DNA from: Thraustochytrium aureum
Taxonomy: Eukaryota
Direction of reading: 5' to 3'
Length of the DNA: 64,000 bases
Assembly (NCBI GenBank): GCA_012862495.1
Contig: BLSG01000090.1
Coordinates: 120,846 to 184,845 of the forward strand
Part shown: piece after piece, positions 9,928-58,654 of the stretch
Numbering within the stretch: position 1 is the first letter of the stretch
How the letters are laid out: every line of letters begins with the position of its first letter
Notes under the pieces: generated by a model
The model's input: only the letters and a program-made list of their open reading frames with translations
Told to the model about the DNA's origin: nothing
The model's database searches: none
Translations under genes and position numbers: made by a program

Positions 9928-12900
9928 CTACTCCTCGATGAGGCGGCGCATTTCGGGTATTGTCTTGAACACTTCAGGCGGAAGCATCAGGAGGATGTAC
10001 TGGGCGTGACGGAGCTCGTCGTTGATCTGCGCAAAAATCCTCAAGATGGCGAAAAACACGAGCACAACGAGAGCAAAAAACAGCGCTGTCATGATCATGA
10101 CCAAGTCGGTGGCGTCGTTGGTGAGCGCTATTGTTGCGGCCACGTAAAGTTCGATGGACTCTTTTATCGCTCCTGCGAGAATCGTGGTGGACGCAAACTG
10201 CATCACACCGACGCGGTCTGCCGACCCTGCTTGCATGAGCGCCAGCTCTGCGCGGTCCAGCATGCGCTCTATCGCAATGCCCAAGCCAAACTCGAGGTCT
10301 TGGACCAATAGAGCCTTTGTGCTCCCAGGGGTGCGCTGCTTGGCGAGTGCCGAGATGCACTCGTCAAACACGCACGCATTGACGAATTCGAGCCCATACA
10401 GACTGGGGAACTTCTTCTCATCGATAAGGCCGACAGTTTCGAGCGTGTCATCACCATACAGGATAGCCGCGCTCATCGCTTTGATATTGTTTACGTCCAC
10501 CCAGGCAGCTGCTGTGCTGTTGTACAGGACTGGGTCTGTGTACCACCTCGACCACGGCGGAGCATCGTTTGGCCCTGGGGCTTCAATTGCGAAGTGCATT
10601 CGCAGGATCGTCGCCCAGCGACGGCCGACCTGGTGGATCGTTCCCACGTAGCCAACAGCCGAGTCTCTCACCCCAATTGCCACCAAAGTAACAACGAGAA
10701 AGTAGGCCGCCAGGAGGAGAAGCGGCGTGGTGAGCTTGACGAACGTTTGCAAACCGCGAAGGAACAGCTTGGTCTGCAAGACCCGGGATTTGGCAACTTC
10801 CGCTGCAGCCTTTTCCGCAACCTTGTCCGCTGTTTGCCCGCCTCGTGCTGGCGCCACCTTGGACGCGCTTCTCCTCGAAGCGCGCTTTGGTTCCCCTCGC
10901 CCTCTGGGTTTGGCACGCCGGCCAAACTTGCCTGCAATGAGGGCGGGGGAGGCGGCTCGTTTGGTCGTGGTGGGGTTTTGCCATCGAGCATCCTATTTGG
11001 CCGGGCGCGCCATGCTCTGTGCGTCTTCGAACTTTGCGTCCTCCAAAGCCTCAACCTGGAGCTGGCTGTCTCTGCGCAGCAGACTTGCTTTTTGGCGCTC
11101 AAGTCCAGGTTTGGCTGCTCCGCCAGTCTGAATCTCCTCCATGAGGTGCTTGACAAGCACGCCCTTCGCGAGGCTTCGCTTGCGCAACGAGGAAACGAGG
11201 TTTTTTTGGAAGGTGGTCGAGGGCGGCGGTCATCCCTGCCTTGGTCCTCCGTACGTCTCCGAGAAGCGGGATGAGCTGCACGAGAATGATGAAGGCCACG
11301 CTGGCCGCAGAAAGCCCCAGCATTGACTGATTGAAACTCACACTGAACTGCAGGACCTCTTTAGCTTGCTCGAAATACATCCCAGAAAACGTGATTGCCT
11401 TGTCAAGCAACTCGAATGGGCCGTTGTTGATGATGTATTGGCACGAGATATCGCACAGGGCAGGATCCTCGGCGAGGAAAGCCTCGCTGGCGGAAACCAG
11501 ACGTTGCACGGCCCTGTCAAAAGAGGTGCGGCGATACGCGTGTCCATCCATAGTCTCTTGGAGGCGGGTTCCGTTGTGCAGGGCGTCGATCACGGACGGC
11601 TTGGAACTTCCCGAAAACGCCAAAATTTCGTTGTGAATGCTGCGGAGACTGCTGGCGGCGATCTGGATGCTTTGTGGGACCAAGGCTCTGACGTCGTTCG
11701 ATTGCGTGTCGTTTGCAGACTTTTCGAGCAGGTCCAGATGAATCATGGTCCCCAGCGAAAGCTTTGCTATGAGAAAGGCGCGCTCGCTGCTATCGTTGAT
11801 GACAGACACCGTCTCCTCAAAAGTTTGGTATGTGTTGCGTTGAACGACAAGCGAGACAATCGACATGCAGGCGTAGGCTCCGGCGAGGATGTAGCACAAG
11901 CGCCGAAACCGAGTTAGTCTCGCCTCCTCGAATGCGATCCGGCCCTCCACCACCTTGTGCAGCGTTTGACCTTGCTTTTGTGTCGAATTCCCCGATGAGA
12001 GCGAGCCCTCGCCGTCCGAGCTAAACGACGCCACGCTTCGCTCCTCATCGTCGTTTTGTGCGTTCGAGATGCCCTGAGTGTTCAGCCCGTACCTGGGCCC
12101 CTTACCTTGCGGGTCTGAGCCATCTTGAAGGGCGAACGAACCTGGCTGCTGGTCGTCTCCGTGTTGCGCGGCTTCTTTCGGCTTTTTGCGAGCTTGAGCG
12201 TCAGGGGCGTTGTCAGCCAGCTTGCTTTCGCGGTCTTCTTCGTCGTCGCTTTGCATGGCCTCGAAGCTGAGCAGGATGATGCTTGGGAACCCATTGAAGC
12301 TCATCGGTTTTGCCGTGACGTGGTATGACTCGCCGTCGCCGCACGCCACGGTTTCTGTGTATTCCAGGTTTGGGTTGGGAACTGCTGTGGCCCCGGCGGG
12401 GTCGAGTTTGGCTTTCTCGTTGGCCTCAGTTTCAAGATCGTCCAGCTCCTTCATCATATCTTCGAACGGGGGAAGGACCGAGAGGCCGGGGATGAACTTT
12501 GCGACCAAGCCTTCCTCACCGGGTTTGTCGCCTACCGAGCGGAGCCCAAAGTCTCGCATCATGCCTTGCGAGAAAAAAAGGACCTGGCCCTTCCCGTCCA
12601 CGGCCACAAACTCCTTTTCGCCTGAGGCTTTCACGTACTTGCCGGAGAACTCGAGGTTTCCTACCGCGTCTTGTGCTGGTGTGATGAATAGGTCGACTGG
12701 GATGACGTAGCCACCTTTGTGGCGGGCCCACATGCGGCGCTTGATCGTCTCGGTGTTGTTTGCTCTGTTGATGTATTCGAGTAGAAGCTTCCCGTGCATG
12801 CGAGAAAAAGGCGGTGGGCACAAAAAGTCGACGTTGCGCCCCACGAGGGTTGCCTTCTTGAACCCAAACAGACGCTGCACGCTATCCGTGGCGTCGTCAA

Positions 12901-14642
12901 CCGTGCCAAGTGTCGTCTCGTTGCCACTAATCGTCAGAATGGCAACACTGTCGTTGCTAAAATCCGCAGCACCGCCCTTGCGACGCTTGAGTTCTGCGGC
13001 AGTGCGCCTCAGGCGCTTTGCTAGGAAGGGGTCGTTCATCACATCCTCGGCGTATACGGCGTACAGCAGGAGGGCTCTGTGCGAGCTCTGGCTAACGAGA
13101 ATGAGCTGGTCAAGGTGCGTTTTGGCCAGCGTGGTGTATTGGTAGATCTTGCTGGCCCCTTTGAAAATCTCATCGGCAGTGTGCTGCGAGGACGCGAGGA
13201 CGGCCCACATATCCTGCACACAGCGGATGCTCTCGAGGATGGACGCCTCGGCCTTTTGACGGTGGTGCGTAAACGTCACGTAGTTGAGAGCCCCACTCGC
13301 TCCACTTGTGCGCTCTTGCTGGCGCTTGAGGAACTGAAAGATGAAGAAGCTGTGGTCCACCTGGCGACCTGGCATCGTGCTCGCTCGGCGCATGTACTGG
13401 CCGGCCAGGAGCGAGTTGCCTCCGCAATGGTCAAACATGTTGGCCAGGTGGATGTTCAGCATCGGGTTCTTGTGGAAGTGCTTTTCGACGATTTTGCGGT
13501 ACTCTGCGTTCACCTTTGGCCACGTTGTCGTCGACGGTTTGAAGCGGTAGCGGAGCACAAGCTCGGCCTTGAACGGCGACATGCGCGGATGCGGCTCCTC
13601 GGAGGCAAGGCTCTGCTCGCGCGCCATGACGAGCAGAGTGAGAAAGGCCATAAACACTGGCCCGCCAAGCAAGAAGGAGATCATCGCACCCCGGTCCGTC
13701 GAATCTCCGACGAACTCGGCCACGGTGAGGCAGATCCCGCTCCACATGAAAAGCCCGTTCGTGCAGACAAACAGCCGGTTCATTTCTCTTCGATGGAACG
13801 GCATGTAGCGCAGGTACGCGCCGGTTATCACAGCCCCGCTTAGTGCCACCGAGGGAACCAGGAGCACGGAGTTGCCGTCGTCGACGACGGCGAAGACCAT
13901 ACTCAGCAAAGTCTGCACAAAGAGGGAAAGGCACTCGACTCGTCCATGTACTTGTGCGAGAGCGTGCGTGCTGTTCGGGTTGTCTGTCACGAAAACCAGG
14001 GCGACCAGCATGTTGAATAGCTCGAAAATCGCGAGCCCGATGCCAACGCCCACGGCAAGCGCGATCCGGCCGCCGGTCCCGCAAGGGAGGGATGCGTCAG
14101 CCATTGAGACGTCGCAACTAAACGCTCCAAAGAGGATCGACAAGATCGGCAGGTGGAGAACGGTGGTCATCAGGCGCATGGTGGTCTGGAGGATTGGGAG
14201 GACCCAGAGGTGCTTGACTGTCCCCGTCGTCCAGAACTGGTGCCCGATCCACGTCGACATGGCGGCGGTGGTCCCTACAAGGGCCAGGCTGATGAAGGTG
14301 GCAATCGTCGGGACGGCGCCCTCAATGTCGTTGATGAACTCGAAGGTGAGTATTTCGAGCTTGGGGCGGAGCCAGTCGGCAAAGTCGGCATTCCACTTGA
14401 ACGACAAGCTCTTGAAGGCGAAGCTGATGAGTTGCAGCGTGCTGACGACGGCAACGATGTAAGGCGCCGGTGACGGACATGTTGGCGTCCTTGGCCATCA
14501 GGTAGAGGAGCATGAATGTTGTGTTTTTCAGCTTTGCACGGATGGATTTTTTCTGGCTGTTGTTATCGACGCGTTCGCCCTCGCCCTCGCCCTCGCCCTC
14601 GTCCTGGAGGCCCAGCAAGCCAAGGACCTTTTCATGATGCAT
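9928..14642 (-). CDS. TmcB/TmcC-like multi-pass membrane protein with PAS domain; frameshifts near 14460, 11160 and 10850
   Basis: N-terminal multi-TM block (HGRVE motif), helical TPR-like region (LLYAVYAEDVMND), PAS (RLFGFKKATLVGRNVDFLCPPPFSRMH...ARHKGGYVIPV), then two TM-extracellular-TM units, ending LLMLPPEVFKTIPEMRRLIEE*. This is the architecture of Dictyostelium tiny-macrocyst proteins. Confidence 0.75.
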
Positions 14643-16235
14643 TTGCGCGACTGCGTGTTCGCGACAAGGCGCCACAGCGCGGCCGTCGCTCCTCTGGGCC
14701 CGCCTGACGCGCGCTGACGCGCGCCAAGTGTTGAGCAAGAGCGATCTGAAGTTGGTCTCCGGATGGTTTGGTCGAAGAGCGCTCACTTCGGCGTCTGTCA
14801 GTGTCGGTGTCGAACAACCACTTCGGTGTTTTGATTGCTTTTTNNNNNNNNNNNNNNNNNNNNNNNNNNNNNNNNNNNNNNNNNNNNNNNNNNNNNNNNN
14901 NNNNNNNNNNNNNNNNNNNNNNNNNNNNNNNNNNNNNNNNNNNNNNNNNNNNNNNNNNNNNNNNNNNNNNNNNNNNNNNNNNNNNNNNNNNNNNNNNNNN
15001 NNNNNNNNNNNNNNNNNNNNNNNNNNNNNNNNNNNNNNNNNNNNNNNNNNNNNNNNNNNNNNNNNNNNNNNNNNNNNNNNNNNNNNNNNNNNNNNNNNNN
15101 NNNNNNNNNNNNNNNNNNNNNNNNNNNNNNNNNNNNNNNNNNNNNNNNNNNNNNNNNNNNNNNNNNNNNNNNNNNNNNNNNNNNNNNNNNNNNNNNNNNN
15201 NNNNNNNNNNNNNNNNNNNNNNNNNNNNNNNNNNNNNNNNNNNNNNNNNNNNNNNNNNNNNNNNNNNNNNNNNNNNNNNNNNNNNNNNNNNNNNNNNNNN
15301 NNNNNNNNNNNNNNNNNNNNNNNNNNNNNNNNNNNNNNNNNNNNNNNNNNNNNNNNNNNNNNNNNNNNNNNNNNNNNNNNNNNNNNNNNNNNNNNNNNNN
15401 NNNNNNNNNNNNNNNNNNNNNNNNNNNNNNNNNNNNNNNNNNNNNNNNNNNNNNNNNNNNNNNNNNNNNNNNNNNNNNNNNNNNNNNNNNNNNNNNNNNN
15501 NNNNNNNNNNNNNNNNNNNNNNNNNNNNNNNNNNNNNNNNNNNNNNNNNNNNNNNNNNNNNNNNNNNNNNNNNNNNNNNNNNNNNNNNNNNNNNNNNNNN
15601 NNNNNNNNNNNNNNNNNNNNNNNNNNNNNNNNNNNNNNNNNNNNNNNNNNNNNNNNNNNNCGTTGGGCGGCGCAGCGAAAACGGCGCGCTTCGAGTCGAC
15701 GTGCCGCCTTTTCAAAGGACGGTGAGCTGATACCGGTCCGCATCGATACTTTCCTCGTGAAAGGCGGCGTGTGGCGCGCCATAGCCTGGCCCCAAACGTC
15801 GGATTGCAGACGGGAGTGGGCTGGTCAGCACGCGCGCTACGAGTAGACTCTATTGCCCTTGAGGTGGTTGCGAGAACCGTGGAAGCAAGCGAACCTCCAG
15901 CCCCCTTTGCCGTCTCTTCGGTGCATACTCTCACTTCGACTCCGCCGCCAGTCCACGCGGCTAGTAGAGGGTAGATTGAACGAGTATCTCTAGGCCAAGC
16001 GTTTCGAGAAAAGCCTTGCAGTCACCGTTCCGTCTCTTGCCCACACGGCCAGGCCAGAACACAGACCGCGTCGTATCGCGCGCGCGCGCTGTCAGCTAGG
16101 AGACTGAGCGCCGCCTGCCCATCCTACATTCGGGGCGCTGGTTGCACAAACGCAAGAAGCAGCCCGGCGCTTGCCAACCCTTGCTCGCTCGTTGGGCAAA
16201 CGTCGACGCTGTGCCTTGCCGCCCCTCAACGCAAC

Positions 16236-19197
16236 ATGTACAGCAGCGTCAAAAAAGGCATCTCGCGCGTCAGGGTCTCACTCGGGTCTGCGAGTAGCCT
16301 CGCCAAGTCCAAGAGCTCGGCTGGTGACCGATCTGCTGACGAGCTCGAAGGGGAACGCCTCGCGCTTTGCGAGGAACCGCACCAAAACGACGAGCGGCTC
16401 GAGCTACCCCCACCGCTTGTGAGCGCAAGGGACGCTGTCGACGAATGCACGTTTGGCGTGCCGCGCGTCACGGTCGTGGACAACACAAAGTCGCAATGTG
16501 ATTTCGCGGAGGCCGTGTTCGAAGTCCTATCAGACAGTGACCTTGGGCTTGACTTGCCCAACCAGGTGAAGCCGCAACCTATCCCAAGTGGAGCGAGCGA
16601 TTCTCCAAAGGGCGCTGGACCAGAGCACAGATGTTGCCCCGAAGCCTCTCCACAAACCGCACCGTGCACGGTCACACCATCGCCAACGGTGCTGGCGTTT
16701 GTTCAACAGCTGTCGAAGAAACTGGGGCATGGGTCGTTCAAGCAAAAGGCAAAGAAGACCAGTTCAACCCAATCGGACGAGCGCGGGCGCGTCGTTGCGG
16801 AGATGCTCTCCAGCGAAGAGTCTTTTCGTGGGTTTCTCAACGCGCTGCGGTCGGTATATGCGGTGCGCCTCAAGAAAGAGCTCTCCGCAGAGCAGCACAA
16901 GCTCTGCTTTAGCAGCATCGAGCAACTTGCAGCGTTCTCAGACACGTTCATTGGGGAGCTCGAAGCAACGATTTCCAGCTCGGAGTCTTTGGGCGACGCC
17001 TGTGTTGGCGACTTGTACTGCAGGTTCTCGCCCTTTTTCAAAATGTACAAGGCCTACTCGAGCACACACTGCCAGATCGCGGAGCTGATTGAGGAGCTCT
17101 GCAAGCGCAAGGCAGCTTTCCGTCGGACGTGCGACGAGTGCAAGGTAAGTTGTGCGGCGGCGCTCCTGTTGAAGAAAAAACGGAGAGTACCTCGTTGGCT
17201 GGCTGCTTGAAAACCGGCCGAATCACGGCGTCGCAGGACCCCGTAGCTGACAGCGAGCGGGCCTAAAGAGCGAGGCCGTATGCAAGGGGCAGACGCTCCA
17301 GAGCATCTTGATAATGCCTATCCAGCGCATCCCACGCCACCTCCTCCTCATCAGAGAGCTTCTGAAGCAAACCCCCGAAGGGCACCCTGACCTCGAGCGG
17401 CTCAAAGACGCCCGGAATGCGCTGGAGGAGATTGCGCAGAGTATGAACCAGGAGATTGGCGACACCGAAAACAGCCACAAGATCCTCGAGATCCAGCAGA
17501 GCATGACGCCGCGCCCCGAACTTTTCAAGACCGGGCGGGTCTTTATCCGGTCCGGAGCACTCAAGAAACGAGGCGACCACGGCGGGCTTCAGGAACTCGT
17601 GTTCTTTCTTTTCAGCGACTGCCTCGTCTATGCCAAGCCGACGTCGCTTGGAATGGGCGGGGCCAAGCTGCAGTTTCGCAGGATGATTCAGGTCGCCCGA
17701 GTAAACGTGGTCGCTGCGGCCCGCGCAAGACTAATGCAGGAGCTTGAAGAGGGCGACGACGTTCCGGAGGATGCGATCGAGTCTGTTGCCCAGCTCGAGA
17801 TTACACCCCAAGAGGGCTCTGCAAAGGGTTCGAGCAAGGCGGGTGACGATGGCCTCGTCCTCCACACCGGCCTCGAAACGCCGCGAAGTGGCCGGGATGA
17901 CATCGGGAAGCGGGCGTCTGTCAACTCGTTTTCTTCAAGCTCGGCTGCGAGCACGTCTGGGGCGAGCGAGACCGTCTCTGTGGCATCGCCGATTCCTTCG
18001 TCCTCCTCGAGCTTGCCAAGTGTTGGACGCAGTGGCGCTTCTGCGACTGGCGCTGGTACTGGTGCGGCAAGCGGGATCGCGTCATCGATGGTGTCGAGGC
18101 TCGCTAACAGTGCTGCGAAGCGAGAGGAGTTGCTCTTTCCCTTTCAGGTGCACGGGACCAAAACGATCTTGCTCTTCGCGTCCAGCGAAGCGGAGAGGCA
18201 ATCCTGGGTGACGGACTTGGAACTCAACTCGGACCCAAACATTGAGACGGACCTCGAGGCAATCGAAAGAGAGCGCGAGGAGTCTCGAAAGCGCATTTTG
18301 GCGGAAGCCCAAGAGAAAATGAGGACTGTCCGGGTTTCCGACCCGGTTCGCACGCGGGCGGCCACTGCGTGGTTTCGCCTCAACGAAGTCAGCGCGCGGC
18401 AGAAGCACAAAGGAGCTCCAGAGATCCAGCTCAAGTTCCAAGTGAGCAGGACCGGTTCCAATTTGTGCCAAACTGGGCCAGTCAAGCCGCTTTCGGTCTT
18501 GTCGCTGACGGTGGCCATCCTGTGCGGGAGGGGCATCACTGGCGAGCTAGCTTTGGGCGGGAAGGCGTTTCACGGCGTATACTGCGTCCTCACGTTTGGA
18601 AAGGTGGTGCACCGGACCAAGGCCTTTTCAATGCAGGACGAGGATCCCACGTGGATGGAGGAGTTTCGCAACCTCGAGTTCATTGCGGGGCTGTTCTCTT
18701 CGATGCAAATTAAGGTCAAGCAAGCGCTGCACGCCAAGCCGCGGAGTCGGGACCCTTGCATCGGCATCATAGATGTTCGCTTGCAAGACATTCTTGCCTA
18801 CACGGGAATCGAGATTGCCAATCCAGACTGCCAGATCTCTGACATTTTCTCCAAGGATCGCACCAACAATCGCGCTGTCCAGAAGAAGATAGCGCGGATG
18901 AAGCAGCCGAAAGGGCTACAAGTCTCCTCTGCGGCGTTCCTGGACGACTACAAGGTGTGCCAGATCCGTCCGGAAACGGAGACGCTGCCACTGTCTTGCA
19001 AGCCACTTCCATGTGTGCCGCAGCCGAGCCAGTTCGAGCCCGCGAAGGCTGATCGACGAAAAAGCTTTCAAATGTTGGCGTCGCGCCCTCTGCCCACCCC
19101 GCCAAGCGAGGTCAGCCAAAAGGCAAGCTCGCCGATGGGACGCGTCGCGCTTCCGTCACTGTGCTCTAGCCCCAACGCGCCAACTTCGGCGGTGTGA
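16236..19197 (+). CDS. Rho guanine-nucleotide exchange factor, DH - split PH - C2; one intron starting at 17145
   Basis: DH motifs VVAEMLSSEESF, FFKMYKAYS, LQSILIMPIQRIPRHLLLIRELLKQTPEGHPD. PH: FFLFSDCLVYAK...ASSEAERQSWV. C2: YCVLTFG...RTK...DPTWMEEF. ORFs 16236-17210 and 17308-19197 are joined by a GT-AG intron. Confidence 0.85.
17145..17268 (+). other. Spliceosomal intron of the RhoGEF gene (acceptor AG at 17253 or 17268)
   Basis: AAG|GTAAGT phase-0 donor, GCTGAC branch-like motif near 17246, in-frame stops inside; both acceptors restore the DH frame. Confidence 0.75.
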
Positions 19198-19373: not shown

Positions 19374-21667
19374 TTACTCGCCGCGAAGCCGACGGCGAGT
19401 CGTTCCCGAACCTACCGCGCAGAGCGACGCAGAAGCAGCCTGCGGGAAGACTCGCAGCATGCACGAGTGACCAACAGGGGCTGTGGCGACGCCAGCAACA
19501 AAGGCAGTCCAGAGACGGCACTCGAGCGTTGGCTCGCGAAACTCGATTGCAACGCATTCCGCTTGGGCGCTGCAGAGGTCCATGCAGGCTTGCTTGGACG
19601 GAACTGACAGCGGCACTAACGAGTAGTCCGTCCCCAGCTGTCCCACCTCGTCGGCATTGTAGCCAGCGAGACATGCCGTGCTGCTGAGTCCACGGAAGGC
19701 CACGCTGCTAGGTCTAGTAGCCAGGTTCATGCACGAGTAGCTCGGTCGGTTCGCCGTAAAGACGATCGGGGCGACCCAAAGCTCGCAGTGGTTCCAGCCA
19801 GGGTTGTGCTCAAACCCGGTGCAAGCCGGTATTCCAGCACATTCGTCATAGCAGTCGCCCCACGGCAGACGCAGACGGGGCAGAAAATCGGAATTCCACT
19901 CCTCTTTCACTGCGTTTCGGCATGCTTGATCGGCGTTGAAGGACCACTCGGTCTCCAACTTGTGGCTGCAGGTGGTACCCGTACGGGGGGCAGACGCGGG
20001 ATTCAGAGGGACCCGCCAAAGCTTGCAGTCAACTGCGCCAGTTGGTGCGACCGCAAACTCGGCTCCAGTGCAGGATCTCGACGCCGCACAGGCAGCTTCA
20101 CAAGCCGTCAACGTCCCCACCGCCTGAGTCACGAACTGGCTCGGATAGCCAGCGCTCGGGGCGCACGCCGCGTCGTCAGTGCGGCGAAAGCCTCCAGCCG
20201 GGCGCAGCTCCTCGGCAGGGCGCACAAAGCACTCGTCGTTCGGCGATGGCGTCGAGTCCGACGCGAGCTGCTCCCAAAGCGTGCATGAGGCCGTGCGCGG
20301 GTTGAACTGCGCGGTGTTGCACCACGCGTAGTTGTCGCAGCGTTCGATGCAGGTTTCGTAGGTGGCGCAGTACTTGGACTCGCGCGGGGCTGGCTTTGGC
20401 GAGCTCGCGAATGCGCAAGCTTGCCCTGGGCGTTGCAGGTACTGGCTCGTGGCGTGCTCGCACGGCCTCATGCTCCCCACCACGCCAGGCATGCAGCTCG
20501 AGGTAAACGAATTCGGCAACTTGGAGCCTCGATCGACGCATTTGGCTCCGTGGGGGTCGATGTGCTTGACGGCCTGACTTGCGCAGGCCGCCAAGTCGCT
20601 CTTGAAGAAGGTCTGAGCGAGATCCAACAGGCGGAGGTCAGAGCCAAAGCCTTGCGCAAAGAAAGAAGTGCTGAGCGTATTCGCGTGCAGGAGCTCGGCG
20701 TCGCTGTATATGACAGAGCACCCGCTCAGAGGTTGCAGCTCCGCCAGCGCTTGTCGCGTCCGCGCCGAAAAGTCCACCACATCGACGCTGGAGCTGAGCT
20801 GATGAGAGTCGAACTGCGAGGCAACGACGAGGTAGGGGGTCTCGACTTGCCCGAGGCGATATTGGCCGAATGTGTCGGTCCAGGAGTTGAGATTGTTCGC
20901 GAGCCCATTTGCGCTGCCTTGCACAAAATTGGTGAACGCTGCTTTGGCCTGATCTACCAGAAACTGGGTCCCCACGAAATCGCGGACGTCGACGTAGTAC
21001 GGGCTGTCAAGGTAGGCGCGCAGGTTTGTGAGGGAGGAATCGTGCCTTGATGCGGTCCACGTTGATCATGGCCCCGCGCGCGCCAGCGCTGAAGCCGCCA
21101 AAGACGACCTGGTCATCGGCCTGTAGGGCGCCCATCGCGCTTGCGAGCTCCGAAGCAGGGTCTACGAGGTACTCGAACACCCTGTCGATGATCCGCGACC
21201 CCTGGAAGTAGCGAATGCCCTCGCGCATTGACGAACCCGGAAAGGGGTCCTCGCGGTCGCCATACCACGCGTCGGAGGAGCAGTAGTTGAGGTAAACGAT
21301 GTTGAATTTGCCGGCGTCGTTGTTCTTCGTAGTTGACATGACGCCTCCTGCCCACCGAACCAAGTTAGGATTCATCGCACTGGTTGAGCGATAGTCGAGT
21401 GACCTGCTTTCGCATGAGGTCTGGCTGTGGCATTGACCGCCGCCCTCGAGCAGGACCAGCCACTTGCGCTCGTATCCGGGCACGGCAGGTTGGTACCACA
21501 GCACGGGCTGGGTGCCATCGTTGCAGAGCCCTACTCGACCGTCACTGGGAAGCTGGTAGAAAACCATTGGTCCGACAGCGCTCGCAGGCTTGACGCAGGA
21601 CAAGAGGAGGGCCAGGCAAGCTAGGCCGGCGCGCTACCAGGGACGCTGGCTTAGCGTTGGTAGCCAT
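19374..21667 (-). CDS. Secreted pectin-acetylesterase/Notum-family esterase with four PAN/Apple modules (paralog A); frameshifts near 21640 and 21025
   Basis: Signal-like AGLACLALLLSCVKPASA; CNDGT, KWLVLLEGGGQC, YCSSDAWYG, GFSAG nucleophile, SQFD, LLHAN; four C-x3-C-x5-C...C-x-LW modules. Confidence 0.85.
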
Positions 21668-22949
21668 GGTCTGCTGCGTGCGAATCTGCGCTTAGCGGAG
21701 CTCGCTGCGTGTCTCGATCGTGTCGTTGCTGGGTCTCGGACGTCGCTTGGCCGATGCGACGCGGGATTTCGCCTTTGCCCAAGCTCTTGGAGCATAGCGG
21801 CCCATCCAAGTCGGTTGGCTGGGAAAATACCTCCACAGCACTGCATGAGGAGGATGCATCGTCATCACCTCTTCCGCCCTGTTTGACCCAGCGTTGTTCG
21901 AGCCGGCAATGATCTTTCTTGTCTGTGCGAGTGCATGTTGAAACAACGAAATCCGACCATCTCGGCGCGCGTTGCGTCGGCAGGTGGGGCTGGTCGCGTG
22001 CTGTATTCGTACATCCAACGGACGGCGCTTGCATCTCGCGCTTTTCTGTGGTTGCGATCGCTCCGGGGCAGGCTTCGATAGGTAGGAGTGCTTGCGGAGG
22101 CTGAAAGTAAGCGGCAAGCAGCCTGCGGCATGGAGGTACCTCCTCGTGGAGATAGTAGTCTCCACAGCAGCTCGCTCTCCGAGTGCATCGAATGATACCG
22201 GCCTTTATCAGCAAGCTCGCTGCCCGTCCGAGTCGCACGCCGTCTTGCAGCCACCTGGCAGCCAATCATAATACCTTGACAACAATAAAAAGTTGACGGG
22301 CTCTCCTCAATCAGGGAAAGGAACACCACTCCGCGTCCGAGTCCTCCGTGGGACTCGTTGGTCGAGCCAATCGATCCATCATCGCACGTCGCCAACCGCA
22401 AGTCCAAAATGCAAGCGTCGTGGAGCTGAGAACAGTACTCACAGCGGTACTCAGAGTATAAAACGGCGGACTCCTTGATTACAGTCCTCATTGTGGAGTC
22501 NNNNNNNNNNNNNNNNNNNNNNNNNNNNNNNNNNNNNNNNNNNNNNNNNNNNNNNNNNNNNNNNNNNNNNNNNNNNNNNNNNNNNNNNNNNNNNNNNNNN
22601 NNNNNNNNNNNNNNNNNNNNNNNNNNNNNNNNNNNNNNNNNNNNCTTCCCGGAAGGAGCGATCGGAGCCAAGCACCGCGCCCGGCATGCGCTCTTCGCCT
22701 GTGGCCGGAGGTCATGAATGAGGGGGCTCCGTGCGCTTGACCGCAAGTCGGCCAACGTGACGAAGGCCGGCCGACCAGACGCTTCGGCGGTGTGTACTCC
22801 CGATTCGCCTCAGGCGCCGCCCGTGCGGCTCTTGAAGCGGACACAGAGGCCGTTGGTTCTCCTAACCGGATGCATCTTGGATAGCGATGCACGTTTGTCT
22901 CAAGGGGCTTGAGGGAGAAGGGAAAGGCTGAAGACCGCCGAAATCCTGA

Positions 22950-23950
22950 TCACAAAATAACAACAACTCGAAGGCTGCGAACAGCTATTTCTCGTTGTGG
23001 TCGAAGGGCTGCTGTCGAGTCATCGGCTCGTGGACTCTCGTGATCGGCTAGGCGCCGACGGATCATGCCTGGCTTCATGCTGGCCTCGTCCCATGATTTC
23101 TCGAGGTCGCTCTCGCGCGAGCGGCGCTGGCTGAGTGACCGCGCTCTGCTCGCAAGGATTGTTTGAGCGCCAAGGCGCTCTTGCCACAGCAGGGCCCGCC
23201 AGTGCCGGCTCAACGAGGCTGCAGTGGTCGCCGTTGGCTAGATGCGCGTGGCGCCGACTTGGACGCGCGCGCAGCAGCCCGCCGGGCACTGCGCGCTCTG
23301 CGCTAGGAGACCCGACCGCGAAGCCCAGGAGAGGGCGGTGCGGTGCGTTCGTAGGTGCGGCCTTGGAAGCGCCCTGCGACAAGGAGGGTCCTCCTTGCCT
23401 GCGAATTTGGCGACGCCTCAGGTGTGGCGAGTCCGTGGGCGTTGTTGACGGCGCTGACGAAAGAGACCGTGGCCCTGTCGGTATCTGTACCTGATTTCTC
23501 GTTGGCGGCACTTGATTGGAGACAGCGGGGAGGTTTTCTTCGTTGGAACCTTGGTCAGCGTTTGTGCCGGCAGTCCAGTTGGTGGCGACGCATACTGTAT
23601 GCCTGCAGGCCGCCCAGAGAAGGGTGCCTTTGACAGCGTAGTTGTAGAAGATGCTGCTCCTTGTCGGTGACGCTGTGGTGCACCGTGTTCAGTACGGATT
23701 CTGCTCAGCCCCAGTGCACTCGGAGATGTGCGCGCATTTGGTTTTGGCGGGCGTTGAACGGGAGCTTCTCGCTTGGCAGATTGTTCGAGCCGTTCGAGGT
23801 TCCTTGCACGTAGCTGCCCCAGACCGGGCGGCGCCAACGATGACGGGCAGCGTCGTCGAAGGCTGGGCGGCGCCAACGACGACGGAGCCCGCGCTCGGCC
23901 ACGAGTCATGAACATCGCCGAGCCCGTCTCTCGTCCCCAAGCACATCCCT
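22950..23950 (-). pseudogene. Decayed partial copy of the esterase-PAN gene B (PAN3 region, Pro/Thr stalk, cytoplasmic tail)
   Basis: 23690-23840 is close in nucleotide sequence to 26156-26320 (cagtacggattctgctca.ccccagtgcactcgg; gaggttccttgcacgt) with an internal deletion of about 15 nt. Downstream translations LTKVPTKK, APSTTPTDSP and SLSQRRSRESDLE echo the gene B stalk and tail. No esterase domain. Confidence 0.65.
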
Positions 23951-24643
23951 ATCAAACTCAGCTGCGGAGGGCTGCAACCAGAGTGTAGCTATCGCGAGCG
24001 CGAGCAGACCGCAACGTGGCCACGTGCGCCACGTCGGCCAGCGCCCAGGCTGGTGGCCGAGCCGTCCAAGCGCCATCAGGTTTTCCGCACCCACGTTCAC
24101 TCCTTCAGGAAGCGACCTGTTTGCACAGCCGCAAGTGCCGACAGCCACCATGTTGGCGGAGCTGCTGGGGAACAGCGTGCACAGCACTTTCGCAGACCGC
24201 GAGCAAGGACACCACCACGCCATTCAAGGCGGTGCGCATCAAGATCTCCGTTCGTGGACACCAAAACCACAAGTCCGACGCGCGCGCCTGCTTCAAGTTC
24301 TCCAAAGCGAGCCAAAATTTGCGTCCGTCACAGTCAATAGTCAAGATTCCAGTGACCCGCGGGACTTGTCAAGGACCGATTGGGTGCAAGGGAGTCATGA
24401 CTTGGAGAGTCGCTCTTGTGTGCCGTCTGCGTCGACGCAGCCGGCGCGGCGAGGCCTTGCGCATGGGTAACTGATTCGAAAGTCGAGAGTTTGGTTTTCC
24501 ATTGAAGAAACGAGACATGCCCGATTGCAAACGAGACGCGCTTTGCCAGGGGCAAGCAGCCCTAGCTAGCGCGTGATCAAGGAAGCGCAATTGAATTGCC
24601 TGTGCCTCGGGGCAAGTCAGACCCCGCTTCAGAACGCTTCACG

Positions 24644-27600
24644 CTACTCGTGATTGCGTCGGTCATCAAAGTACAGCTCGAAGCGCGGGTTGGAGCTCGC
24701 GCGGCGCTGCTTTGACAAGCTGCTTGGACAGATTATCACCGTCTCGACAGAGTCATCCCGGAGGCGGACGCCGTTGCTGGCAACGGCAGGGTCTGACGGT
24801 ATCACGGCACCGACAGGCTGGTCTCGCTGCGTGCGGCGCCGCCAACGGCGGACGAGGAGCGCAGTAACGAGTAGCAGGGCCACTGCGCTGCCACCCTCCC
24901 AATTGAGACCTTCCCTGCGGGAGACGCAGCTCCTCCTGACGTGTCTCGCTGCTCGCGTTTGCGGGACCGCCCGGCACTAGCTCCAATAGCTTGTTGACTG
25001 GGGATCCTGTGGCGACTGCGACGGTGCGCCAGAGATTGGCGAGGACGTTGGGATTGGCGTCGTGGGGGATGTTGTCGGCAGTTTCGAGGTCGGCGCCCTC
25101 GTTGGCACTACTNNNNNNNNNNNNNNNNNNNNNNNNNNNNNNNNNNNNNNNNNNNNNNNNNNNNNNNNNNNNNNNNNNNNNNNNNNNNNNNNNNNNNNNN
25201 NNNNNNNNNNNNNNNNNNNNNNNNNNNNNNNNNNNNNNNNNNNNNNNNNNNNNNNNNNNNNNNNNNNNNNNNNNNNNNNNNNNNNNNNNNNNNNNNNNNN
25301 NNNNNNNNNNNNNNNNNNNNNNNNNNNNNNNNNNNNNNNNNNNNNNNNNNNNNNNNNNNNNNNNNNNNNNNNNNNNNNNNNNNNNNNNNNNNNNNNNNNN
25401 NNNNNNNNNNNNNNNNNNNNNNNNNNNNNNNNNNNNNNNNNNNNNNNNNNNNNNNNNNNNNNNNNNNNNNNNNNNNNNNNNNNNNNNNNNNNNNNNNNNN
25501 NNNNNNNNNNNNNNNNNNNNNNNNNNNNNNNNNNNNNNNNNNNNNNNNNNNNNNNNNNNNNNNNNNNNNCGCTGTCGGGCTCGCCGTAGTCGGCGACTTG
25601 GTCGGGAAGGACGTCGGGTTTGCCGTAGTCGGCGACTTGGTTGGGAAGAGCGTTGGACTTGGTGTTGTTGGTGACCGAGTAGGTCGTGACGTTGTTGGCG
25701 CACTCGTTGGCCTTGGCGTTGGCAGCGTTGGCGACCCTGTCGGCGCCGACGTGCACGGAAATCCGTCACCAACAGCTGGTAGGCCGCCGCTCGAGCCGAC
25801 GACCGGGTCGCGAATCATACAGATACGTTCAAGACCTCCAGACTCGAACGATACGATTGGCGTCTTCCAAAGACGGCACCGTCGCCCCAAGATTGCCTCG
25901 GCTGCATCAAAATCAATCCCCAAGCAAGCTGGCGCACCCCTACAGAGCTCTGCACACGCGTCGGAGGTTGACGCGCCCGCTGCCGCGAAATCAAAGTTGA
26001 CCCCCTCGCTCCCGTCCTCGTCGGGGTTGTACCCCGCCATGCATCGCGCCGACCCGATGCCTCGAAACCCCTTTGCTCGATAGAGTCGAGAGCACGAGTA
26101 GGCCGTTTGAGACTGTACAGAGCCGATCGTCGAGATCCACATTTCACAGTGATCCCAGTACGGATTCTGCTCAACCCCAGTGCACTCGGGGATTTGCGAG
26201 CACTTTGTCTGGCAGGCATCGAACGGGAGCCTCTCCCTTGGCAGAATGTTCGAGTCGTACGAGGTTCCTTGCACGTTGCGACAGACGCTTCCAGCTGCCC
26301 CGGACCAGGCGGCGCCAACGTTGATGCTGCACGTCGAGCCGGGGCTCGGCCTCGGGTCCTGAAGGGCAGCCCGCCACAGCTTGCAGCGCCGAGTGCACCC
26401 TTCGCTGTTGTACTGCGCTCCAGTGCATCCCGGCGATGCTGCGCATGCCTCATGACATGCGGCCGTATTCTGCACCAGCACCTCGTCATAAGCATTTGCG
26501 TCTGTGCCGCGCACCGGAGAACAGGCAGTGTCGGGCTGCTCGACGAAACTGTGAGCATACCGAACAAAGCACTCTGTGTTGACGCTCTGCGTGTAGCCGA
26601 CTGCGCGAGCAGACCAAAGTTTGCACTCGCCGAGGAGCAAGCGGTACTGGGCCGTTTGGCACCAAGCGTTCGCGCGGCACAAATCCAAGCACTCGGTGTA
26701 CGTGGACGCGTACGCTTGCAGGGCAGGCGCCGGCGCACCAGCTGTGCTATAGTCGATCGTGCACGCCGCTCGAACTCGCTGCGCGAACTCGCTTGCGGGC
26801 ATCTCGGTGGGGCTCATGCTGCCGACTTGGCCGGGGGTGCAACCCGCTGTGAAGGTCTCCGTGCGAACGTCAGAGCCGCGCTCGACGCAGGATTCGCCAC
26901 GCGGGTCGATGAACTTTTGCACCGGGCCAACGCAAGGACCGCCCGTGCCGCGCAAGAATGCATTTGCTAGCGGCATGAGCCGCACGTCCAAGCCGTAGCC
27001 TTGAAAATAGTACGAGTTGGTGTGCGTCGTGGCGTGCACGTACTCGGTGTCACTGAAGATGACCGAGCAGGGGCTGAGGGGTTGGAGCGCGCCGAGCTCG
27101 GTGCGCGTCGCAGCCGCAATGTCCACCAAGTCAGCATTTGTGCCTGCCTGGAAAACGTCGAACTGCGAGTGAATGAGGAAGAAGGGGGTTGCAACCTTCT
27201 GCATGCGGTATTGTCCGAAGAGGTCTTGCCAGGACTGGACCCCGTTGGCGATGCCGTTTGGCGTGCCTTGCACAAAGTTCTCCATAGCCCCCTTTGCTTG
27301 CGCCACAAGGAACGGCGTCACAGTGATATAGTCGGTCATGTCGACATAGTACGGACTGTCCAGATAAAGGCGAAGGTGCTGGAGGCCAAACTGCTCGCGC
27401 ACGCGGTCCCCATTCACCATGGCCCCCCGCGCCCCTGCGCTAAACCCGCCGAAAACGACCGCATCGGTCGGCCGCATGGCACTTGCCCCCAGGACTGCCA
27501 GCATGGGCGACGCCGGGTCCATGGCATGGTGAAGACACGGTCGATGATGCGCGTTCCCTGAAAGTAGCGAACGTGCGCAACCGTAGACTCTGGGAAGGGG

Positions 27601-28022
27601 TTCTCGCGGTCGCCGTGCCAGCCGTCCGACGAGCAGTACTTGACGTACACCGCGTTGTACTTGCCAGCTTCGTTGCCATCGCGTTTTGAGAGCACGCCGT
27701 TCGTGTAGCGCACTGGGTTGAGCTGGACCTCGGTCGTGCTCCGGAGGTGCGGGAGCCGACTCTCGCACGACCTCTGTTCGTAGCACTGGCCACCGCCCTC
27801 GAGCAAGACGATCCACTTGCGCTCAAACCCGGCCTCCGCGGCCTTGAGGTACACGGCCGGCTGCGACCCGTCGTTGCACCTTCCGACAGCGCCGTCGTCA
27901 GGGAGTCTGTACAAGAACATCTCGTCATACGACTCAGCGGCCGTCTGGAGGACCGCCATCGCGAGGGCCACCAGCAGCAGCCTGCATGACTGCAGCGCGT
28001 TGGGCCGGAGTCTCGGCTTCAT
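24644..28022 (-). CDS. Membrane-anchored pectin-acetylesterase/Notum-family esterase with four PAN/Apple modules, Pro/Thr mucin stalk and TM helix (paralog B); frameshift near 27525, disrupted near 24977
   Basis: MKPRLRPNALQSCRLLLVALAMAVLQTAA signal; CNDGS, LEGGGQC, YCSSDGWHG, GFSAG, HSQFD, YVHAT; four PAN modules; PTKSPTT repeats; SAVALLLVTALLVRRWRRR TM with basic stop-transfer. Confidence 0.85.
25030..25750 (-). repeat. Coding tandem repeat for a PTKSPTT/PTSFPT mucin-like stalk (partly in N-gap)
   Basis: Repeated gccgtagtcggcgacttggt on plus; translation PTKSPTTANPTSFPTKSPTTASPT. Confidence 0.85.
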
Positions 28023-31773: not shown

Positions 31774-32931
31774 CTACTTGACCAAATCACTTGAGGCGGA
31801 CTCGGCAAGCTCCAACCCGTCGCCGCTGCTCGACGTTAGCTCGCGCCTGCCTCTGCGAAAGTCCGTAAACGTCTGGTCCAACCGCGCAGCAAGGGTCTCA
31901 AACTCGGCCGCCTCGATCCCGATCGCGCACGCCAGCGTGACATAGGCGCACGGATAGGCGCTCGAGCTGGCTCCGTAGTTTTCAAAGGCGATCCCCGCAA
32001 CCTTCTTGGGCATCCCGGGCGCCACCACACGAGCACCCGAAACGCCCCGAGTGAACAGCATCGAGCCGAACTTTGTCGCCTGCTCTGGCGCGTCGACCAC
32101 GTCTGACAGGGTAACGGCGAAGGAGATCGTGTTAGCGCGCCAGGTGACCAGCAGACGCTCGCCGTGCTTGGCTGCCACGCGGGTGAGCGCCTCCCGGAAT
32201 GGACCGATCAGGTCGATCCGCTGCCGCCTCAAGTTCGCATAACCCTGTGCACCAAACGTCATAAGCGTCAAGAACACGTCCAGGATTGGTGCCATCGAGG
32301 CGCGCCCAGGATACGTCTGGCTCAGCTCGCCTTCGACCCACTCGCGGTTCGGGCCAGTAATAATCGCACCACCAACGGGTACGAGCAGGTTCTTGTCTGT
32401 CGACTGGACGATGGCATCCACGCGGCCAGACCGGCAGGCCTGGTTGACGCTGTGGCAGCACTTTGAGCACTGGAGCCCGTACGCGTTGTTGATGACATGC
32501 GCAATGCCGGCATCGCGGCACAACGCTGCGATGCCCTCCACGTCGTCTGGGACCCGTGGAGCAAAGCAGCTTGTCGTTGAAAGGACGCCGAGGACGTTTT
32601 CCGCGCCGAGGCGCTCAAGCGCGGCTTGCAATGCATCCAGGTCCGTCTTCACCTGGTCGCCTTCGATCTTACCCTCAACAACGACAGGCTCAAACCCGGC
32701 CGTTCGAATGGCTTTCAGGCAGGTCTTTTGGTCGATTCGCGGCCACAGCACGTACCGCAGATTGGACCCGGGCCGCTGCGCTTGTTCAGAGTGCCGAAGG
32801 CACTGGAGGACGAGGCTGAGGCTCATTCCTGTCGCCATGGGTACCACCAAGACGCCGTGGACGTGCGTCATGCCGAGCACTCGCCGCACGAGGTCGCGCA
32901 CCAACTCTACAGTCAGCTTGTACAACAGGGA
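31774..32931 (-). CDS. SEPSECS: O-phosphoseryl-tRNA(Sec) selenium transferase (5' end in N-gap)
   Basis: VPMATGMSL, WPRIDQKTC, STTSCFAPRVPD, HVINNAYGLQ, QSTDKNLLVPVGG (PLP lysine), YPGRAS, GSMLFTRGVSGARV. Confidence 0.95.
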   Translation of the reverse strand, partial: SLLYKLTVELVRDLVRRVLGMTHVHGVLVVPMATGMSLSLVLQCLRHSEQAQRPGSNLRYVLWPRIDQKTCLKAIRTAGFEPVVVEGKIEGDQVKTDLDALQAALERLGAENVLGVLSTTSCFAPRVPDDVEGIAALCRDAGIAHVINNAYGLQCSKCCHSVNQACRSGRVDAIVQSTDKNLLVPVGGAIITGPNREWVEGELSQTYPGRASMAPILDVFLTLMTFGAQGYANLRRQRIDLIGPFREALTRVAAKHGERLLVTWRANTISFAVTLSDVVDAPEQATKFGSMLFTRGVSGARVVAPGMPKKVAGIAFENYGASSSAYPCAYVTLACAIGIEAAEFETLAARLDQTFTDFRRGRRELTSSSGDGLELAESASSDLVK

Positions 32932-58400: not shown

Positions 58401-58654
58401 GCTCGCCTCCTTCTCGGTCGCCGCCCTCCCGGTCGACGCAGGTCGACGACTCTGGTATTCCGATGGGCGGCGTCATCCCTGTTGCACGCGCGGTATCGCC
58501 CGACGAGAGGTTTGCGCCGTCGGCGCCGCCAGCTCAAGTCGGACTGCACGTGAACACTGGCCATGGAAGGCGCACGTCCACAATGGCGGAGGGCGAGCAG
58601 ACCAATGCGAATGGCTTTCGCACTCGTAGCAAGGAGAATCTGACATGCTCGTAG
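55410..58654 (+). CDS. ADAM-family membrane metalloprotease (prodomain, reprolysin, disintegrin, Cys-rich, TM, Pro/Ser-rich tail); 5' end in gap, internal gap 57029-57311
   Basis: Cys-switch WSCG; zinc motif HELMHNLGSYH; Met-turn FIMDP; disintegrin CGNGIKEADEECDCG...ECDVQEVCNG; TM IILGGVGAAVLLGSAAAFCIC. Confidence 0.9.

What the first reader, a model, noticed from the sequence alone, without database searches (positions are those of the whole stretch)
19374..28022. Tandem Notum/pectin-acetylesterase - 4xPAN/Apple esterases: one secreted, one stalked and membrane-tethered
Seen: two co-oriented paralogs with intact GFSAG Ser, SQFD Asp and candidate His, each followed by four PAN/Apple-like modules. 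Paralog A stops after the modules. Paralog B adds a PTKSPT stalk, TM helix and cytoplasmic tail. Known: plant PAEs and animal Notum are essentially single-domain, and PAN/Apple modules bind glycans or proteins (oomycete CBEL, apicomplexan micronemal proteins). Inference: a substrate-targeted de-acylase pair for plant or algal polysaccharide, with soluble and cell-surface versions. I do not recognise this architecture as characterised.
Basis: partly seen in the sequence, partly recalled or inferred. Interest (0 to 1): 0.7.

Follow-up and report, generated by a model that had tools for sequence, protein, structure and literature searches.

The report
Notum-like esterases carrying four Apple domains
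A marine protist (likely a thraustochytrid) has two neighbouring genes that each join a pectin-acetylesterase/Notum-type enzyme to four Apple domains, one predicted to be secreted and one likely held on the cell surface by a long stalk, and they likely strip acetyl groups from complex sugars in its food; this is an uncommon arrangement of known parts.

Summary
Two minus-strand paralogs (A 21667-19374, 763 aa; B 28022-24644, about 1,125 aa) each encode a signal-peptide-like start, a PF03283 (PAE/Notum) esterase with Ser-Asp-His aligned to Notum S232/D340/H389, and four six-cysteine PAN/Apple modules (Pfam above cut-off; model matches HGF-N and TgMIC4). All six frame breaks in the window are closed by short-read contigs. 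B adds a Thr/Pro stalk, a hydrophobic helix and a tail, but a 457-N gap in the stalk is not bridged. The host is likely a thraustochytrid (SepSecS 67% to Hondaea). No protein with this layout was among the 150 best of 234 hits in 1.84 billion representatives; the six nearest esterases, including one from Mucochytrium, lack PAN. PAE-PAN fusions exist in other clades (2 clear, 1 weak of 150), and PAN modules and C-terminal anchors are common on protist hydrolases. Pocket positions (Gly for W128, Arg for T236, aromatic for A342) argue against Notum's long-lipid pocket, and plant PAE motifs are not kept. Most likely a glycan O-deacetylase pair for external food; pectin specifically is not supported. 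New variant of a known kind; moderate interest.

The parts
19374..21667 (-). Gene A, 763 aa: signal-peptide-like start, PAE/Notum esterase, 4 PAN/Apple modules, short basic end, no membrane anchor
   Evidence: window has one extra base at 21635 and one at 21036 against short-read contigs; stop region covered by an X1 contig with no indel in the coding part (record 1)
21577..21667 (-). A: predicted signal peptide (basic n-region, hydrophobic core, A-x-A end)
   Evidence: hydropathy 2.8 over 11 residues; no signal-peptide predictor was run
20436..21576 (-). A: esterase domain and Cys-rich linker; Ser193 (21090), Asp286 (20810), His327 (20687)
   Evidence: Pfam PF03283 E 3e-26; Notum E 9e-18; triad columns
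19461..20417 (-). A: four PAN/Apple modules (20417-20229, 20165-19968, 19922-19731, 19673-19461)
   Evidence: PAN_1 E 1e-12; six-Cys pattern; coordinates
23690..24077 (-). Broken third copy: signal-peptide-like start at 24077, then a 170-nt stretch 79% identical to B's module 3, with frame shifts and a stop; likely a pseudogene remnant
   Evidence: blastn E 2e-39; breaks persist with the differences of the X1 contig 23650-24111 applied; no Pfam match for 23691-23861
24644..28022 (-). Gene B, about 1,125 aa if the N run is counted at face value: signal-peptide-like start, esterase, 4 PAN/Apple modules, Thr/Pro stalk, membrane helix, 68-aa tail
   Evidence: one base missing at 27523/4 and three indels at 25010, 24943, 24896 against X1 contigs
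26785..27935 (-). B: esterase domain and linker; Ser195 (27441), Asp289 (27159), His330 (27036)
   Evidence: PF03283 E 4e-21 and 6e-11 for the two pieces
25819..26763 (-). B: four PAN/Apple modules (26763-26569, 26523-26329, 26283-26092, 26043-25819)
   Evidence: PAN_1 E 8e-13; AlphaFold2 model pLDDT 76.7 with four repeats of one strand-helix-strand pattern; PAN/Apple structures are the top matches
24905..25752 (-). B: Thr/Pro/Ser-rich stalk (PTKSPT, PTRAPT repeats), about 280 codons including the unread N run 25113-25569
   Evidence: 74% S/T/P before and 50% after the gap; an X1 repeat contig runs 12-18 letters into the gap in register, none bridges it
24644..24904 (-). B: predicted single membrane helix (about 24904-24851) followed by RRWRRR and a 68-aa inner tail; stop 24646-24644
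   Evidence: Kyte-Doolittle 2.2 over 19 residues; one 381-nt X1 contig covers 24707-25087

Best explanation
The two genes are old tandem paralogs that encode PAE/Notum-family serine esterases fused to four PAN/Apple modules, and they likely remove short O-acyl (acetyl) groups from complex glycans outside the cell, with A predicted to be released and B likely held at the tip of a Thr/Pro stalk on the cell or ectoplasmic-net membrane. Shown: the domains, the Ser-Asp-His triad and oxyanion glycines, the PAN fold, the stalk and hydrophobic helix. Inferred: both enter the secretory route; Ser attacks the ester through the standard alpha/beta-hydrolase acyl-enzyme steps; the acyl pocket is small and polar (Gly, Arg and an aromatic residue where Notum has W128, T236, A342), which fits acetyl rather than palmitoleoyl; the four modules, which differ from each other (12-31% identity) but have kept their order in both genes, would bind the insoluble glycan or glycoprotein and keep the enzyme on it in sea water; de-acetylation would open detrital, algal or bacterial polysaccharide to the cell's glycosidases. 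The fusion arose once in this lineage from a single-domain ancestor, before the duplication; B's stalk was gained or A's lost afterwards.
For: Triad columns: Ser 70 of 71, Asp 71 of 71, His 62 of 71 (9 gaps) rows, aligned to Notum's catalytic residues by a 40-sequence profile, E 1e-62 (numbering from PMC8172013). Both copies under purifying selection: codon positions 60/66/41% identical, 4-fold sites 57 of 165. Pocket mapping: W128 to Gly, Y129 to Gln, T236 to Arg (69 of 71 rows), A342 to His/Phe (aromatic in 70 of 71; Trp in the plant-like row) (pocket residues from PMC7544826). Relatives in the same protist branch are fused to a GH2 glycosidase (P0056, P0066); similar PAN modules sit on GH71, GDSL and BD-FAE enzymes. 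Characterised plant members are pectin acetylesterases (PMC5465549). Apple domains of TgMIC4 and SML-2 are solved with lacto-N-biose and thio-galactose (entry titles); CBEL binds Gal/GalNAc (PMC3532174). A PAE/NOTUM orthogroup marks phagotrophic stramenopiles and is labelled digestive there (PMC8163842 Table 1; a label, not an assay). Thraustochytrids secrete hydrolases through ectoplasmic nets (PMC10101102). Host: SepSecS best hit Hondaea 67%, 543 bits, against at most 54% and 383 bits for named non-labyrinthulomycetes among the 120 listed; a Mucochytrium protein is in the 8-member clade.
Against: No member of this protist branch was found with a measured activity. The pocket was mapped by sequence only; no reliable model of the esterase domain was obtained. 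The counts for Arg and the triad come from hits selected by likeness to the query, so they are biased upward. The best structural matches of the modules include protein-binding PAN domains (HGF N-domain Z 10.2, factor XI and kallikrein apples), so a fold match does not show sugar binding. The neighbours (RhoGEF, BBS9) give no carbohydrate context. Labyrinthulomycetes have few CAZymes (1.1-1.5% of genes, PMC10101102), and peptide-pattern annotation found no pectinolytic enzymes in Labyrinthula (bioRxiv 10.1101/2020.09.14.297390). B's membrane link crosses an unread gap.
Confidence: 0.5

Rival explanations
1. The enzymes remodel the organism's own surface: they de-acetylate its sulfated galactose/xylose wall scales or ectoplasmic-net coat, B at the membrane and A within the wall, with the PAN modules binding self galactan.
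For: Thraustochytrid walls are sulfated polysaccharides with galactose and xylose (PMC11642839); Apple domains often bind galactose; plant PAEs act on the plant's own wall; several single-domain relatives have an N-terminal hydrophobic anchor typical of resident secretory-route enzymes (P0002, P0004, P0010); a conserved Arg beside the catalytic Ser could hold a sulfate or carboxylate (inference).
Against: Acetylation of these walls is not mentioned in the passages read. The fusion is missing from the six nearest relatives, which is unexpected for a basic wall function.
Confidence: 0.2
2. They work like Notum: they cut a fatty acyl or other ester group off a protein, peptide or lipid at the cell surface, and the PAN modules recognise that protein.
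For: Notum is the only solved relative; many PAN domains bind proteins; F268 and F320 of the Notum pocket stay aromatic; thraustochytrids are lipid-rich.
Against: W128, Y129, T236 and A342 of the palmitoleate pocket are replaced by Gly, Gln, Arg and His/Phe; GH2 fusions in the same branch point to glycans; Wnt ligands are an animal feature (recalled, not tested here).
Confidence: 0.13
3. They are true pectin acetylesterases aimed at seagrass or mangrove pectin, as the family name says.
For: CE13 is listed as pectin acetylesterases (PMC13450560); thraustochytrids live on mangrove and seagrass detritus and pectinase activity is reported (PMC10101102).
Against: Plant motifs GCSxG, NxayDxwQ, HCQ are replaced by GFSAG, SQFDxxQ, HAN/HAT; the branch includes a clam parasite (Mucochytrium quahogii) and a pelagophyte, which suggests a broader substrate.
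Confidence: 0.1
4. B is not membrane-bound or the genes are dead: the membrane helix belongs to a separate mucin-like gene that starts inside the N run, or the frame breaks are real in the sequenced strain.
For: The N run is not bridged and its length does not keep the frame; the mending contigs are shallow.
Against: The same repeat type and strand lie on both sides of the gap, and the repeat runs into it in register; 6 of 6 breaks are closed by contigs; a neighbouring RhoGEF gene is also split over two frames, as expected for an error-prone assembly; triad and cysteines are all kept.
Confidence: 0.07

Closest known systems
Plant pectin acetylesterases (CAZy CE13, Pfam PF03283)
   Same: Same Pfam family above cut-off, triad, GGG oxyanion loop with Gly at the Notum W128 position, aromatic residue two after the Asp, secreted
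   Different: Plant enzymes are single-domain, 39-51 kDa, without transmembrane helix (PMC5465549); their GCSxG, NxayDxwQ and HCQ motifs are not kept; here Arg follows the nucleophile loop where the plant-like row has Leu
Animal Notum (Wnt palmitoleoyl carboxylesterase; PDB 4UYU, 4UZK)
   Same: Alignable over the whole domain (profile E 1e-62 to 1e-66), S232/D340/H389 kept
   Different: Pocket residues W128, Y129, T236, A342 replaced; Notum has no PAN modules or stalk
Single-domain protist PAE-like proteins P0002, P0004, P0006 (Mucochytrium quahogii cluster), P0007, P0009, P0010
   Same: One clade with A and B (8 rows, SH-aLRT 100); 39-47% identity to B's C-terminal half; shared GGGQC, SAGxRG, SQxD, H motifs
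   Different: 320-467 aa, no PAN module, no stalk; uncharacterised
Other PAE-PAN fusions: P0015 (MMETSP transcript; 4 PAN then PAE), P0032 cluster (PAN-PAE-PAN), P0056/P0066 (GH2-PAE-weak PAN-like module-Pro stalk)
   Same: Same two domain families in one chain
   Different: Other domain order, other esterase clade; a joint clade of A, B, P0015, P0032 is rejected (AU p 0.00026)
PAN/Apple proteins: TgMIC4, SML-2, oomycete CBEL, dinoflagellate multi-Apple proteins, Colletotrichum copper oxidase 6RYV
   Same: Module fold (Z 9.3, 2.2 A over 69 residues to TgMIC4-A5; Z 7.9, 2.1 A over 72 to 6RYV); best sequence matches are dinoflagellate Apple repeats at 26-32%. 6RYV is a solved enzyme with PAN modules
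   Different: MIC4, SML-2 and CBEL have no catalytic domain; none carries a PAE domain

Membership tests
PAE/Notum family (PF03283) | Pfam score above the curated cut-off | tested here: met
   92.8, 76.1 and 42.4 bits against 26.6 for three of four pieces; the fourth (A's C-terminal piece) 22.8
PAE/Notum family (PF03283) | Ser-Asp-His triad and Gly-rich oxyanion loop | tested here: met
   A S193/D286/H327, B S195/D289/H330, EGGGQC loop; columns align to Notum S232/D340/H389
Plant-type pectin acetylesterase (CE13) | GCSxG, NxayDxwQ and HCQ motifs (PMC5465549) | tested here: not met
   GFSAG; SQFDSHQ / SQFDVFQ; LHAN / VHAT
Plant-type pectin acetylesterase (CE13) | Acetate release from pectin (EC 3.1.1.6) | not testable with these tools
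   needs an assay
Notum (Wnt deacylase) | Hydrophobic palmitoleate pocket lined by W128, Y129, V187, T236, F268, F319, F320, A342 | tested here: not met
   Gly, Gln, Ala/Gly, Arg, Tyr, Thr/Leu, Phe, His/Phe at these positions by sequence mapping; no structure of the domain
Notum (Wnt deacylase) | An O-lipidated Wnt or ghrelin-like substrate in the organism | not testable with these tools
   no genome is held for this window
PAN/Apple domain | Pfam PAN_1 above cut-off and 4-6 Cys pattern | tested here: met
   48.0 and 48.6 bits against 21.4; six Cys in 8 of 8 modules
PAN/Apple domain | PAN fold | tested here: met
   B model pLDDT 76.7; all 9 chains with Z of 8 or more are PAN/Apple-bearing, e.g. 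3hms Z 10.2, 2.5 A over 79 residues; mostly modules 2-3 were matched; the alignment used for folding held PAN-like proteins; A was not folded
Lectin-type Apple domain (TgMIC4-A5, SML-2) | Galactose-binding site | not tested
   binding residues were not mapped; identity 16-21%
Type I membrane protein (gene B) | Signal peptide, ectodomain and one membrane helix with basic inner flank in one chain | tested here: inconclusive
   helix and RRWRRR present; continuity across N run 25113-25569 not bridged

The most novel reading that the evidence does not exclude
A and B belong to an uncharacterised third branch of the CE13/Notum family, wide in marine protists and marked by an Arg beside the catalytic Ser, that de-acetylates anionic (sulfated or uronic) marine or bacterial glycans rather than pectin or Wnt; this branch has picked up PAN/Apple modules at least two or three times as a carbohydrate-binding module not listed as such, and this thraustochytrid deploys it as a released plus net-tethered pair.
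Probability: 0.3. Interest if true: 0.62.

Novelty: new variant of a known kind. Interest (0 to 1): 0.42.

Why it matters
The PAE/Notum family has two studied ends, plant pectin acetylesterases and animal Notum; the many protist members have no measured substrate in the papers found here. These two genes come with their own binding modules, so a glycan array on the modules and an ester panel on the enzyme could name the substrate of that branch and test whether PAN/Apple repeats serve as carbohydrate-binding modules on marine protist hydrolases. It would also add to how thraustochytrids, abundant coastal decomposers with few recognised CAZymes, open acetylated detritus. It is not a new mechanism: both domains and the soluble/tethered pairing are known devices.

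Tried and rejected
Word-indexed protein searches with A's main ORF (309-986 aa candidates) and B's N-terminal piece (longer proteins) returned nothing; weak evidence, since the full HMMER search found relatives at 39-47%. The ESM Atlas gave no usable hit for B and no useful taxon for SepSecS. Single-sequence folding of B failed (pLDDT 34.8) and was not used. B's main ORF alone found no PDB sequence. The metagenome-contig scan gave one distant locus (28%, 1,115 bases), not followed. No whole genome is held, so copy number, other CAZymes and synteny were not tested. No RNA holder was listed. A second laying of contigs did not bridge the stalk gap. A first tree under the mixture model did not finish; the LG+G4 quick tree was used. 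Three look-ups of earlier findings returned nothing. The original Notum structure paper is not held. The middle region of P0015/P0032 looked ricin-like but scored only E 0.07 in one of three proteins, so it is not named. Rejected: separate esterase and PAN genes (one frame in B); introns as cause of the breaks (single-base differences in DNA contigs); a GPI anchor on A (C-terminal hydropathy at most 1.4, charged end); one common origin of all PAE-PAN fusions as a single clade (an old gain with many losses is not excluded, but domain order differs).
Full report
Observation. The window is gene-dense, intron-poor eukaryotic DNA with 18 runs of N. Two genes lie on the minus strand between a RhoGEF gene (ending 19197) and BBS9 (from 28892). 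A runs from ATG 21667 to stop 19374, B from ATG 28022 to stop 24644. In the window A is in three frames and B in several. Short-read contigs of public DNA runs differ from the window at each of the 6 breaks in the way that opens the frame: 21036 and 21635 in A; 27523/4, 25010, 24943 and 24896 in B. Five come from run X1 and one from X2; two are read from loose ends; depth is 2-5, and X1 may be the source sample. The five other indels listed fall outside A and B. A neighbouring RhoGEF domain is likewise split over two ORFs (profile 1-135 and 120-180), so assembly error is the simple reading. B's catalytic half, four modules and stalk start are one unbroken 651-codon frame in the window itself. 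The N run 25113-25569 in B's stalk is not bridged; a collapsed repeat contig runs into it in register.

Domains. Pfam places the N-terminal parts in PF03283 (92.8, 76.1, 42.4 bits; cut-off 26.6) and the C-terminal parts in PAN_1 (48.0, 48.6; cut-off 21.4). The only solved relatives of the esterase are Notum chains. A 40-sequence profile aligns end to end with Notum (E 1e-62 to 1e-66) and puts the window's Ser, Asp and His on S232, D340 and H389. Each gene has four modules with six cysteines; same-numbered modules of A and B are 30-43% identical, different modules 12-31%, so the four-module array predates the duplication. The esterase domains are 55% identical; 4-fold sites are near saturation (57 of 165) while codon positions 1 and 2 are 60 and 66% identical: an old duplication with both copies under selection. 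An AlphaFold2 model of B's modules on a 30-sequence alignment has pLDDT 76.7, pTM 0.49; Foldseek ranks factor XI/kallikrein apples, 6STX and SML-2 first, and the wide structural search gives HGF N-domain Z 10.2 (2.5 A, 79 residues) and TgMIC4-A5 Z 9.3 (2.2 A, 69). The rows mostly cover modules 2-3; A was not folded. B goes on into a stalk (74% and 50% S/T/P on the two sides of the gap), a helix of hydropathy 2.2 followed by RRWRRR, and a 68-residue tail; A has no hydrophobic end. Signal peptides are judged by eye and hydropathy only.

Host. SepSecS (31777-32931) is closest to Hondaea fermentalgiana (67%, 543 bits); named non-labyrinthulomycetes among the 120 listed reach at most 54% and 383 bits. 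One of the six nearest esterases clusters with Mucochytrium quahogii. The host is likely a thraustochytrid; this rests on one marker and one relative.

Relatives. HMMER over 1.84 billion representatives with B's catalytic half plus modules gave 234 hits at E 0.001; the 150 listed were examined. By my own profiles 112 carry the esterase, 41 carry PAN modules, 3 carry both: P0015 and P0032 clearly, P0066 weakly (E 0.015) (Pfam on 50 of the 150). None has the esterase followed by four modules. The tree used 71 esterase domains (78 pieces of 280 residues or more from 122 proteins, 7 near-duplicate cluster members dropped; quick IQ-TREE, LG+G4, SH-aLRT only): A and B are sisters (99) inside an 8-row clade (100) whose other six members are single-domain; a clade of A, B, P0015 and P0032 is rejected (AU p 0.00026; the group was named before the tree was seen). 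The modules' best sequence matches are Apple repeats from Polarella, Pyrodinium, Breviolum and Cladocopium clusters at 26-32% identity; that is too weak to call a transfer. The same module type sits on a GDSL lipase (Chlamydomonas), a BD-FAE esterase with four C-terminal modules (P0108), a GH71 glucanase and a CAP protein. 18 of the 112 esterases have a hydrophobic 19-mer behind the domain (crude test). So fusion to PAN and membrane tethering are both recurrent in marine protists; the exact layout and the tandem soluble/stalked pair were found only here.

Mechanism. Catalysis is the standard Ser-His-Asp acyl-enzyme route (established for Notum, PMC8172013). For the substrate I mapped Notum's pocket residues (PMC7544826) through the printed 4UYU alignment (numbering anchored on S232) onto A and B: W128 Gly, Y129 Gln, V187 Ala/Gly, T236 Arg, F268 Tyr, F319 Thr/Leu, F320 Phe, A342 His/Phe. 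A bulky residue at A342 and Gly at W128 are shared with the plant motifs GGgwC and NxayDxwQ (PMC5465549); Arg at T236 is in 69 of 71 rows and absent from the two plant-like rows, though the rows were selected by likeness to the query. A pocket filled by an aromatic side chain and an Arg fits a short acyl group on a polar, perhaps anionic, substrate better than palmitoleate (inference; no structure). GH2-esterase fusions in the same branch and the listing of a PAE/NOTUM orthogroup among markers of phagotrophic stramenopiles (PMC8163842) point to digestion of glycans. I therefore put 0.5 on de-acetylation of external food glycans, 0.2 on remodelling of the cell's own sulfated wall, 0.13 on a Notum-like protein or lipid deacylase, 0.1 on plant pectin specifically, and 0.07 on B not being tethered or the genes being dead. 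Against the main reading: no activity is known in this branch, PAN folds also bind proteins, and the neighbours give no carbohydrate context.

A third copy. Between the genes, 23690-23843 is 79% identical over 170 nt to B's module 3, behind a signal-peptide-like start at 24077; it has frame shifts and a stop that remain when the X1 differences are applied. It is likely the remnant of a partial duplication of B, a sign of ongoing module shuffling at the locus.

Literature. Seen: PMC5465549 passages and section 9; PMC8172013, PMC7544826, PMC3532174, PMC10101102, PMC11642839, PMC13450560, PMC3091767 and bioRxiv 10.1101/2020.09.14.297390 passages; PMC8163842 one passage and section 11; PMC12221091 term searches in main text and 4 supplementary files, no hit; PMC8207647 term search, no hit; other papers as search listings only. 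Not found in print in these searches: 'acetylesterase' with 'PAN Apple' and 'domain architecture', 0 papers; PAE and PAN terms together, 64 papers with two of five terms, 20 listed, the one holding both accession numbers names them separately; Apple/PAN with dinoflagellate terms, 0; 'pectinacetylesterase' in none of the 40 listed of 474 thraustochytrid papers; searches added no description. Subscription journals, InterPro and most supplementary tables were not seen and could list the architecture.

Verdict. Real, intact (B's anchor link inferred), and an uncommon layout, but built from known domains by a route that marine protists use often. New variant of a known kind; interest 0.42.

Noticed in passing
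window 23690-24077 (-): Broken partial copy of B's PAN module 3 (79% over 170 nt) behind a signal-peptide-like start; likely pseudogene remnant.
   Followed up: partly
window 19377-19400 (-): A ends in a basic RRRLRGE; an RxL/RRLR-type processing site is a recalled resemblance, not tested; 5 of 150 relatives have a loosely similar end.
   Followed up: partly
window 40544-42810 (-): OpuAC (betaine-binding) domain ORF directly ahead of a 7tm_3 class-C GPCR ORF, likely one receptor split by a frame error.
   Followed up: no
window 55411-58651 (+): ADAM-type reprolysin plus disintegrin gene, followed after an N run by a Cys-rich ORF without Pfam match.
   Followed up: no
window 11102-14497 (-): TmcB-like protein with TPR and PAS domains, 1,132-codon frame.
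   Followed up: no
window 15975-19197 (+): RhoGEF-PH gene split over two frames; supports indel errors in this assembly.
   Followed up: partly
P0009 (and P0158): A close relative has Arg in place of the catalytic Ser (GGFRAG): an inactive member or a sequence error.
   Followed up: no
P0056, P0066, P0309: GH2 glycosidase fused to a PAE-family esterase, then a weak PAN-like six-Cys module and a Pro-rich stalk: a good handle on the branch's substrate.
   Followed up: partly
P0108: BD-FAE/carboxylesterase followed by four PAN modules: the same layout as gene A with an unrelated esterase.
   Followed up: no
window 22501-22644: An X1 contig joins across this N run; whether the N runs are gaps or masked repeats is not settled.
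   Followed up: no
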